Shown: one piece after another, positions 38,001-41,000 of the stretch
Position numbering within the stretch: position 1 is the stretch's first letter
How the letters are laid out: each line of letters begins with the position of its first letter
Assembly (NCBI RefSeq): GCF_003334305.1
Contig: NZ_QOWS01000002.1
From: Escherichia coli
GTDB taxonomy: Bacteria; Pseudomonadota; Gammaproteobacteria; Enterobacterales; Enterobacteriaceae
Direction: 5' to 3' (one strand)
Length of the DNA stretch: 64,000 bases
Program-made: the position numbers

Positions 38001-41000
38001 TTGTGCGAACTGCCAAAGGTCAGGTGACGGCGAAGTATGTGATTGTCGCCGGGAATGCGTATCTGGGCGATAAAGTAGAGCCGGAACTGGCGAAACGCAG
38101 CATGCCGTGCGGCACGCAGGTGATCACCACCGAACGGCTGTCGGAAGATTTAGCCCGTTCGCTGATCCCGAAAAACTACTGTGTGGAAGACTGTAACTAT
38201 CTGCTTGATTACTACCGTCTTACCGCCGACAACCGCCTGCTGTACGGCGGCGGCGTGGTCTACGGCGCGCGCGACCCGGATGACGTTGAGCGCCTTGTGG
38301 TGCCGAAACTGCTGAAAACCTTCCCGCAGCTGAAGGGCGTGAAAATTGATTACCGCTGGACGGGCAACTTCCTGCTGACCTTGTCGCGCATGCCGCAGTT
38401 CGGTCGCCTTGATACCAACATCTATTACATGCAGGGCTACAGCGGCCACGGCGTCACCTGTACCCATCTTGCCGGGCGTCTGATTGCCGAACTGCTGCGC
38501 GGCGACGCCGAACGTTTCGATGCCTTCGCCAATCTGCCGCATTACCCGTTCCCCGGCGGGCGCACGCTGCGCGTGCCATTTACCGCGATGGGCGCGGCTT
38601 ATTACAGCCTGCGCGATCGTCTGGGCGTTTAATTTCCGATTAACAGTGAAGAGTCAAAAGGTGTGAAACATGAGCAACAATGAATTCCATCAGCGTCGTC
38701 TTTCTGCTACCCCACGCGGGGTTGGCGTGATGTGTAACTTCTTCGCCCAGTCGGCAGAAAACGCTACGCTGAAGGACGTAGAGGGCAACGAATACATCGA
38801 TTTCGCCGCAGGCATTGCGGTGCTGAATACCGGGCATCGCCACCCTGATCTGGTCGCGGCGGTGGAGCAGCAATTGCAACAGTTTACCCACACGGCGTAT
38901 CAGATTGTGCCGTACGAAAGCTACGTCACGCTGGCGGAGAAAATTAACGCCCTTGCCCCAGTGAGCGGGCAGGCTAAAACCGCATTCTTCACTACCGGTG
39001 CGGAAGCGGTGGAAAACGCGGTGAAAATTGCTCGCGCCCATACCGGACGACCTGGCGTGATTGCGTTTAGCGGTGGCTTCCACGGTCGTACATATATGAC
39101 CATGGCGCTGACCGGAAAAGTTGCGCCGTACAAAATCGGCTTCGGCCCGTTCCCTGGTTCGGTGTATCACGTACCTTATCCGTCAGATTTACACGGCATT
39201 TCAACACAGGACTCCCTCGACGCCATCGAACGCTTGTTTAAATCAGACATCGAAGCGAAGCAGGTCGCGGCCATTATTTTCGAACCGGTGCAGGGCGAGG
39301 GCGGTTTCAACGTTGCGCCAAAAGAGCTGGTTGCCGCCATTCGCCGCCTGTGCGACGAGCACGGTATTGTGATGATTGCCGATGAAGTGCAAAGCGGCTT
39401 TGCGCGTACCGGTAAACTGTTTGCCATGGATCATTACGCCGATAAGCCGGACTTAAAGACGATGGCGAAAAGCCTCGCGGGCGGGATGCCGCTTTCGGGC
39501 GTGGTCGGTAACGCGAATATTATGGACGCGCCCGCGCCGGGCGGGTTGGGTGGCACCTACGCCGGGAACCCGCTGGCGGTGGCTGCCGCGCACGCGGTGC
39601 TCAATATTATCGACAAAGAATCACTCTGCGAACGCGCGAATCAACTGGGCCAGCGTCTCAAAAACACGTTGATTGATGCCAAAGAAAGCGTTCCGGCCAT
39701 TGCTGCGGTACGCGGCCTGGGGTCGATGATTGCGGCAGAGTTTAACGATCCGCAAACGGGCGAGCCGTCAGCGGCGATTGCACAGAAAATCCAGCAACGC
39801 GCGCTGGCGCAGGGGCTGCTCCTGCTGACCTGTGGCGCATACGGCAACGTGATTCGCTTCCTGTATCCGCTGACCATACCGGATGCGCAATTCGATGCGG
39901 CAATGAAAATTTTGCAGGATGCGCTGAGCGATTAATAGCCCAACGCAATAATGTCTGATGCGCTGCGCTTATCAGGCCTGCAAACGACGTATTGATTATG
40001 TATGCCGAATAAAGCATTCACGCCGCATCCGGCAAGTTGTATTGCTCAACTTCGCTAAATCTGGTGCTTTTTCAACAACGCGCGGAACTGATGATAAGTT
40101 AACCCCAGTAATTCAGCCGCGCGCTTCTGGTTATATTTCCCTTGTTGCAAACTGAGTTGCAGCAACTCTTTTTCCTGCTGCATCTGAAACTCACGTAAAT
40201 CCAGCGGCAGTGTTGGAAGCGAGGTGGTTTCTGAAACGGCGATAGTGTCTTCAGGCGGACGCCGTTTAAAGGGATCAATAATGATGTCATCAAGCGGATA
40301 ATCGCTGGTGCCGTGGCGATACACTGAACGTTCCACCACGTTTTTCAATTCACGAATATTTCCCGGCCAACGATAATTCAGCAATGTTTCTCTGGCGCGC
40401 TCCGTAAACCCCGGGAACAGAGGCAGCTTGATTTCCCGACACATCTGGATGGCAAAGTGTTCTGCCATCAACATTATGTCGCTTTCGCGCTCGCGCAGTG
40501 GTGGCAGTTGTACAACATCAAAAGCCAGTCGGTCGAGCAGGTCAGCGCGAAAAGTGCCTTCATTGACCATCGCCGGGAGATCGGCATTCGTCGCGCATAC
40601 CAACCGCACATTCACCTGCAATGGCTGGCTGCCGCCAACGCGCTCCAGTTCACCGTACTCAATCACGCGCAATAATTTCTCCTGCACCATCATCGGTGCC
40701 GTAGCGAGTTCATCAAGAAATAGCGTACCGCCGTCGGCACGTTCAAATCTCCCTGGATGACGTTTTTGCGCACCGGTAAACGCCCCCGCTTCGTGACCAA
40801 ACAGTTCGGAATCCAGCAGATTTTCATTTAACGCCGCGCAGTTAAGGGAAATAAACGGCCCTTGCCAACGGGAGGAGAGATAATGCAGGCGGCTGGCAAT
40901 CAGCTCTTTACCGGTGCCGCGTTCGCCGATGATGAGCACCGGTTTGTCCAGCGGTGCGAGATGCGAAACCTGTTCCAGCACTTCGAGAAAGCTGTTCGCC

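What the first reader, a model, noticed from the sequence alone, without database searches (positions are those of the whole stretch)
39953..40036. REP/BIME clusters mark operon boundaries (puuE|pspF, ompG|ycjW, ymjA|sapA)
Canonical REP sequences occur at 30603-30636, 39953-40036 and 55987-56062, each between convergent or tail-to-head transcription units. They probably act as transcript-end stabilisers or insulators between the puu, psp and ycj modules.
Basis: partly seen in the sequence, partly recalled or inferred. Interest (0 to 1): 0.2.

Follow-up and report, generated by a model that had tools for sequence, protein, structure and literature searches.

The report
Ordinary E. coli REP repeats
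The three flagged sites are genuine copies of E. coli's well-known REP repeats, sitting just after gene ends as such repeats usually do, so the finding is correct but ordinary and already described.

Summary
The window is E. coli chromosome (sapA–ymjA–puu–psp–ycj–ompG–ycjW). All three claimed sites hold real REP units. Five units match published Y/Z1/Z2 REP references better than any of 60 shuffled windows. Four of them recur about 37–40 or more times per genome in all 5,426 complete E. coli genomes; the fifth is a weak member.

- **puuE|pspF:** one Z1 unit and one Y unit, inverted, around an 18-nt linker. It is base-identical in K-12.
- **ompG|ycjW:** a decayed Y unit plus a well-kept Z2-like unit.
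- **ymjA|sapA:** a single Y unit.

"Canonical" is generous: only one unit keeps the GTAG foot, and the puuE|pspF linker is not the usual 33–35-nt L motif.

Strain comparison shows three things. The pspF element persists even in strains that have deleted the puu cluster. One strain carries the REP-specific IS1397 inside its loop. The second ompG|ycjW unit is missing in the two B2-type strains examined, and probably in about 740 genomes.

None of the sites looks like an intrinsic terminator. Published data place Rho-dependent termination of ycjW-direction transcription beyond the REP pair. The likeliest role is a 3'-end protective hairpin working with Rho termination, not a tight insulator. Already known; low interest.

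The parts
39952..39981 (+). Z1-type REP (palindromic unit), 17 nt after the puuE stop codon. The head is GTCTGATGCG (one change from GCCTGATGCG). The foot is CTGC instead of CTAC.
   Evidence: 27 of 30 identical to the published Z1 reference, score 24 against a shuffle maximum of 15. Median 37 places per genome. RNA hairpin -10.5 kcal/mol in the puuE sense.
39982..39999 (.). 18-nt linker AAACGACGTATTGATTAT between the two feet. It holds a 12-of-13 match to the IHF core WATCAANNNNTTR at 39985-39997(-).
   Evidence: Read directly from the sequence. Nearly invariant in K-12 and two B2-type strains. The IHF match has no statistical weight: 75 such matches in the window against 55 expected. The linker is shorter than the 33-35-nt L linker seen in 32 of 52 sampled Z1-Y pairs.
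40000..40034 (-). Y-type REP, 21 nt after the pspF stop codon. The foot is ATAC instead of CTAC.
   Evidence: 31 of 35 identical to the Y reference, score 27. At least 40 places per genome. RNA hairpin -15.9 kcal/mol, z -3.5, in the pspF sense. IS1397 is inserted in its loop in strain Z1323PEC0014.
30603..30637 (+). Single Y-type REP in the ymjA-sapA spacer, about 30 nt downstream of the ymjA stop. The ymjA transcript reads it in the inverse (weaker) orientation. The foot is CAAC.
   Evidence: 31 of 35 identical to the Y reference, score 27. At least 40 places per genome. Locus length is essentially invariant across 5,423 genomes. Fold -11.9 kcal/mol in the ymjA sense and -16.3 in the opposite sense.
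55986..56020 (+). Decayed Y-type REP, 13-14 nt after the ompG stop. The foot is CTAT. It does not fold as a REP hairpin on its own.
   Evidence: Score 17 against a shuffle maximum of 15. 81-82% identical to the other Y copies in the window (D9/I2). Median 4 places per genome. A counterpart is present in both one-REP strains examined.
56025..56061 (-). Z2-length REP with Y-like G/C at the variable positions and an intact GTAG foot, 22 nt after the ycjW stop. It is absent from the two B2-type strains examined.
   Evidence: 32 of 37 identical to the Z2 reference, score 27. At least 40 places per genome. Hairpin about -22 kcal/mol on either strand, z -5 to -6. The 110-nt spacer folds as one long hairpin with z -4.9 and -4.7.

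Best explanation
These are copies of E. coli's REP (palindromic unit) repeat family, lodged in 3' untranslated spacers. The puuE|pspF copy is a single Z1 + Y inverted pair (a BIME). The ompG|ycjW copy is a decayed Y plus a Z2-like unit. The ymjA|sapA copy is a lone Y.

What is shown: identity, copy number, position and strain distribution.

What is inferred from the literature: the REPs are transcribed as part of the flanking mRNAs. They form G+C-rich hairpins without a U tract, so they do not terminate transcription by themselves. Rho stops RNA polymerase further downstream. PNPase and RNase II then trim back to the hairpin, which becomes the stable 3' end and may also add some Rho-dependent attenuation.

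In the tail-to-tail pairs, each convergent mRNA meets its own proximal REP in the 5'-GCCGGATG orientation. That orientation is clearly more stable for both units at puuE|pspF and about equal for the Z2-like unit. At the DNA level the same sequences are relics of RAYT-driven spread, and they are targets for REP-specific insertion sequences.
For: - **Family identity:**
- **3'-UTR position:**
- **No intrinsic-terminator features:**
- **Hairpin energies and orientation asymmetry:**. The long hairpin at ompG|ycjW has z of about -4.8.
- **Rho region:** a Rho-dependent region at MG1655 1382709(-), antisense to ompG, lies about 250 nt past the ycjW stop and beyond the REPs (Adams et al. 2021, Supplementary file 2).
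- **General mechanism:** PMC6061677 and bioRxiv 10.64898/2026.03.23.713779.
- **Natural IS1397 insertion:** it sits in the loop of the pspF-side REP with a 3-bp TTC duplication. IS1397 is REP-specific (PMC1525189).
- **Retention:** the pspF BIME is kept in strains that deleted puuE.
- **From memory, not retrievable here:** Jovanovic & Model 1997, J Bacteriol 179:3095, described this very goaG(puuE)-pspF element as a 'RIB element'.
Against: - No curated Term-seq 3' end maps to any of the three sites in Adams et al. 2021. Low expression in the conditions used may explain this.
- The puuE|pspF spacer does not fold better than shuffles as RNA (z -0.2 and -1.6).
- The ymjA transcript reads its REP in the weaker orientation.
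- The 2026 preprint reports no general effect of terminal REPs on mRNA half-life.
- The second ompG|ycjW REP is dispensable in at least some natural strains.
Confidence: 0.6

Rival explanations
1. These are functionally neutral relics. The REPs are decayed remains of RAYT-mobilised elements that are tolerated in non-essential 3' spacers and do nothing measurable for the flanking genes.
For: - Four of the five units have lost the GTAG foot that TnpA-REP needs for binding and cleavage (sequence; requirement from PMC3333891).
- The unit at 55986-56020 no longer folds as a REP.
- There is a one-REP versus two-REP polymorphism at ompG|ycjW.
- Terminal REPs have no general half-life effect.
- No Term-seq ends map to these sites.
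Against: - The pspF BIME and its linker are kept across phylogroups, even after loss of puuE.
- The ymjA-sapA copy is length-invariant in about 5,400 genomes.
- Locus-specific published work exists on the pspF element, but I know it only from memory.
Confidence: 0.25
2. The role is at the DNA level. The pairs between convergent genes bind IHF and/or DNA gyrase. They relieve or partition the positive supercoiling that builds up between converging polymerases. This is the 'insulator' reading.
For: - Two of the three sites lie between convergent genes.
- REPs and BIMEs are reported binding sites for gyrase, Pol I and IHF (PMC1525189; PMC3333891).
- The linker has a 12-of-13 IHF core and is nearly invariant in four strains.
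Against: - The IHF match is no better than chance in this window.
- The linker is not the canonical L motif that carries the IHF site.
- No binding data could be retrieved.
- The 2026 preprint finds no chromosome-compaction role for its model REP.
Confidence: 0.1
3. The REPs dampen translation. A REP hairpin within about 15 nt of a stop codon stalls the terminating ribosome and lowers output of the upstream gene. Here that would apply to ompG, where the gap is 13-14 nt.
For: The spacing is read. The 15-nt rule is quoted in PMC12306157.
Against: - The ompG-proximal unit is the decayed one and does not form a REP hairpin alone.
- The other REPs sit 17-33 nt from their stop codons, outside the rule.
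Confidence: 0.05

Closest known systems
E. coli REP / palindromic units (Y, Z1, Z2 classes)
   Same: The sequence matches the published references. The units share the imperfect-palindrome architecture, extragenic 3' position, high genomic copy number and targeting by IS1397.
   Different: Four of the five copies carry a mutated GTAG foot. One copy (55986-56020) is heavily decayed.
BIME-1 / RIB (reiterative IHF BIME) elements
   Same: The puuE|pspF element is a single Z1 + Y inverted pair with the feet facing the linker. From memory, this locus was published as a RIB element (Jovanovic & Model 1997).
   Different: The linker is 18 nt. It does not align convincingly with the 33-35-nt L motif (...CTGCAATATATTGAATTTGCACGATTTT) found in most sampled Z1-Y pairs. 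The IHF-core match is not above chance.
BIME-2
   Same: The ompG|ycjW pair combines a Y unit with a Z2-length unit in inverted orientation.
   Different: It is a single pair rather than a tandem array, with a 4-nt spacer. The Y unit is decayed. The Z2-length unit has Y-like bases at the K/M positions.
REP325 (yjdM-yjdN) dual terminator-stabiliser
   Same: It is a REP in a 3' UTR lacking a U tract, with Rho acting nearby.
   Different: REP325 is a six-repeat cluster inside an operon. The elements here have one or two units at operon ends. No locus-specific expression data were available.

Membership tests
E. coli REP / palindromic unit family | A 30-40-nt imperfect palindrome matching the Y, Z1 or Z2 consensus | tested here: met
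   Scores of 27, 24, 27, 17 and 27 against a shuffle maximum of 15-16. References were taken from PMC11208160 and PMC12306157.
E. coli REP / palindromic unit family | Many dispersed copies per genome | tested here: met
The decayed unit has a median of 4. As a control, the puuP 3' hairpin is single-copy.
E. coli REP / palindromic unit family | Extragenic, mostly between tandem or convergent genes | tested here: met
   All five units lie in 3' spacers. This is the location bias described.
RAYT (TnpA-REP)-competent REP | An intact GTAG tetranucleotide at the foot, required for binding and cleavage (PMC3333891) | tested here: not met
   Only 56025-56061 keeps GTAG. The others read GTTG, GCAG, GTAT and ATAG. 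This bears on present mobility, not on descent from the family.
BIME-1 / RIB | One Z1 and one Y unit, inverted, as a single copy | tested here: met
   Z1 at 39952-39981(+) and Y at 40000-40034(-).
BIME-1 / RIB | A conserved long L linker (about 33-35 nt) | tested here: not met
   The linker is 18 nt. 32 of 52 sampled Z1-Y pairs have the 33-35-nt L motif, and 20 have short variable linkers.
BIME-1 / RIB | IHF binding in the linker | tested here: inconclusive
   A 12-of-13 core lies at 39985-39997(-), but there are 75 such matches in the window against 55 expected. Binding itself cannot be tested with these tools, and the ChIP supplement is not held.
BIME-2 | Alternating Y and Z2 units in tandem arrays with S and s/l/r linkers | tested here: inconclusive
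   There is one Y(decayed)-Z2-like pair with a 4-nt spacer and no array.
Intrinsic (Rho-independent) terminator | A G+C-rich hairpin followed by a U tract | tested here: not met
   No terminator-like sites were found on either strand at the three junctions.
Rfam naRNA4 (REP325-derived RNA, RF02564) | A score at or above the gathering threshold | tested here: not met
   18.7 and 18.5 bits against a gathering score of 59.5. There was no hit at gathering threshold.

The most novel reading that the evidence does not exclude
The Z1-18 nt-Y element downstream of pspF may be a selected, pspF-serving 3' module rather than a passive repeat. It survives intact in lineages that deleted puuE. In the four alleles compared, its short linker changes less than the REP arms. 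That would make it a distinct short-linker BIME subclass with a conserved protein-binding core.
Probability: 0.12. Interest if true: 0.25.

Novelty: already known. Interest (0 to 1): 0.08.

Why it matters
It matters little beyond annotation. REPs have been known since 1984, and their roles as 3'-end hairpins, Rho-linked attenuators and IS targets are documented. From memory, the puuE(goaG)-pspF element was itself the subject of a 1997 paper. The modest value here lies in the natural one-REP and two-REP alleles at ompG|ycjW and the puu-deleted strains. They offer ready-made comparisons for testing what a REP does to neighbouring gene expression.

Tried and rejected
- **Fixed-spacing REP pattern:** it found nothing because the classes differ in loop length. 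I replaced it with glocal alignment.
- **Jovanovic & Model 1997:** I could not retrieve the paper, so it is cited from memory only.
- **Supplements:** those of Dar & Sorek and the IHF ChIP-seq paper are not held. Wilde et al. 2003 is also not held.
- **Adams et al. Term-seq tables:** they have no entry at the three sites.
- **puuP 3' hairpin (30998-31046):** I considered it as a fourth REP because of its exact GCCGGATGCG head. I rejected it because it is single-copy and scores within the shuffle range.
- **Weak hits at 35726-35755 and 61390-61419:** these are also within the shuffle range.
- **IHF site:** it is not significant from sequence alone.
- **Orthologous loci in other species:** none were among the 120 stretches returned by the single genome-contig scan.

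Full report
**Context**

The window is E. coli chromosome. It is 100% identical to strain 120899 and 99% identical to K-12-derived strains over puuE-pspF. Annotation transfer and ORF listing give these genes:
- sapA 28712-30355(-)
- ymjA 30668-30913(-)
- puuP 31047-32432(-)
- puuE 38670-39935(+)
- pspF 40055-41032(-)
- ompG 55067-55972(+)
- ycjW 56083-57081(-)

**Observation**

I used REP references printed in papers. The Y, Z1 and Z2 sequences come from PMC11208160, and a second Y consensus from PMC12306157. A glocal scan of both strands found five units:
- Y at 30603-30637(+), score 27
- Z1 at 39952-39981(+), score 24
- Y at 40000-40034(-), score 27
- a decayed Y at 55986-56020(+), score 17
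- a Z2-length unit at 56025-56061(-), score 27

The best score in 60 dinucleotide shuffles was 15-16. The exact head GCCKGATGCG occurs 5 times against 0.58 expected.

Short blastn searches show that four units belong to a dispersed family. The decayed unit has a median of 4.

A REP-like hairpin directly after puuP (30998-31046) served as a useful negative control. It is single-copy and scores within the shuffle range. Rfam holds no matching family, only sub-threshold hits to the REP325-derived naRNA4.

**Anatomy**

At puuE|pspF, the Z1 and Y units face each other foot-to-foot across an 18-nt linker, AAACGACGTATTGATTAT. The element is base-identical in K-12 MG1655.

A genome-contig scan for Z-foot/linker/Y-foot arrangements returned mostly E. 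albertii and Citrobacter loci. In that sample, 32 of 52 Z1-Y pairs carry a 33-35-nt linker with the core CTGCAATATATTGAATTTGCACGATTTT. This is the L motif of BIME-1. The other 20 pairs have short, variable linkers.

The pspF element belongs to the short-linker minority. Its 12-of-13 match to the IHF core is one of 75 such matches in the window, against 55 expected. It therefore carries no weight by itself.

Only the unit at 56025-56061 keeps the GTAG foot that TnpA-REP needs (PMC3333891). The other four read GTTG, GCAG, GTAT and ATAG.

1. About 1,100 genomes do not cover the puuE side of the query. In the B2-type strains I examined, the whole puu cluster is deleted. That removes window positions about 31151-39873. 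A 108-nt puuP remnant is joined to a 62-nt puuE remnant at a 4-nt ACCA microhomology. The Z1-linker-Y element next to pspF is still kept, with a nearly unchanged linker.
2. In strain Z1323PEC0014, a 1,432-bp IS1397 sits in the loop of the pspF-side Y unit with a TTC target duplication. IS1397 inserts specifically into E. coli REPs (PMC1525189). This is independent, functional recognition of the sequence as a REP.
3. At ompG|ycjW, the window, K-12 and O157 have two units in a 110-bp spacer. The two B2-type strains examined have one unit in a 50-bp spacer. About 740 genomes fall in the 90-95% identity band. The listed members of that band match in two pieces and are 60 nt shorter.
4. The ymjA-sapA copy is essentially length-invariant.

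**Mechanism**

No site has a hairpin plus U tract. Folding results are:
- The pspF-side Y hairpin is -15.9 kcal/mol (z -3.5) in the pspF sense, but the hairpin does not form in the puuE sense.
- The Z1 hairpin is -10.5 kcal/mol in the puuE sense and -6.3 in the pspF sense.
- The Z2-like unit is about -22 kcal/mol on either strand.
- The ymjA mRNA reads its REP in the weaker orientation.

So at puuE|pspF each convergent mRNA meets first a REP in the more stable orientation. The whole ompG|ycjW spacer folds as one long hairpin, with z of -4.9 and -4.7.

Adams et al. 2021 (Supplementary file 2) list a Rho-dependent region at MG1655 1382709(-), antisense to ompG. It has a Rho score of 4.3 and a significance of 1.3e-6. 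This is about 250 nt past the ycjW stop and beyond the REPs. The position rests on 800-nt comparison windows, so it is approximate. It fits the published model in which Rho terminates downstream and exonucleases trim back to a stem-loop (PMC6061677). It also fits the dual terminator/stabiliser role shown for REP325. It argues against a tight insulator.

No curated Term-seq 3' end lies at any of the three sites. Low expression in the conditions used may explain this. The stabiliser role therefore remains an inference at these loci.

**Comparison with what is known**

These are ordinary members of the REP family. The pspF pair has BIME-1 composition but lacks the canonical L linker. The ompG pair is BIME-2-like in composition but is not an array.

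From memory, the puuE(goaG)-pspF element is the subject of Jovanovic & Model, J Bacteriol 1997, 179:3095, 'The RIB element in the goaG-pspF intergenic region of Escherichia coli'. I could not retrieve that paper, so I do not rely on its details.

**Verdict**

The identification is correct. The stabiliser reading is plausible, and the insulator reading is unsupported. The finding is already known and of low interest.

Noticed in passing
window ~31151-39873; L004 3893-4060: The whole puuP-puuE cluster (about 8.7 kb) is deleted in the B2-type strains examined. About 1,100 of 5,422 genomes do not cover the puuE side. The deletion leaves a 108-nt puuP remnant fused to a 62-nt puuE remnant at a 4-nt ACCA microhomology. 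The endpoints lie inside coding sequence, so the deletion was not REP-mediated.
   Followed up: partly
L003 2571-4002 (corresponds to window ~40017-40019): A 1,432-bp IS1397 (an IS3-family, REP-specific insertion sequence) is inserted in the loop of the pspF-proximal Y REP in strain Z1323PEC0014, with a TTC target duplication.
   Followed up: yes
window 35758/35759; L001 7515-7639: The window lacks a 125-bp element in the puuR-puuC spacer that K-12 and strain 120899 carry. From memory, that element resembles an ERIC/IRU repeat, with TATACAC...GTGTATA ends. The empty site lies just after a REP-like relic hairpin at 35727-35755.
   Followed up: partly
window 30998-31046 (-): A strong 45-nt hairpin (-30 kcal/mol, z -4.4) starts 2 nt after the puuP stop. 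Its head is an exact GCCGGATGCG, but the sequence is single-copy in E. coli genomes. It is probably a locus-specific 3' structure or a very old REP relic.
   Followed up: partly
window 61391-61417: A perfect hairpin, GCCTGATGGTG-CAACA-CACCATCAGGC, lies between convergent tyrR and tpx and is flanked by A/T-rich sequence. It looks like a bidirectional terminator and is not a REP.
   Followed up: no
window 53940-55022 (+): ycjV is an intact 360-aa ABC ATPase ORF here, as in strain 120899. K-12 MG1655 annotates ycjV/ymjB as pseudogenes.
   Followed up: no
window 8745-8947 (+): A full-length Rfam match to the enterobacterial sRNA STnc180 (198 bits against a gathering score of 50).
   Followed up: no
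window ~55829 (MG1655 1382709, - strand): Published bicyclomycin data place a Rho-dependent termination region antisense inside ompG. This implies that ycjW-direction transcription overlaps the 3' end of ompG.
   Followed up: partly
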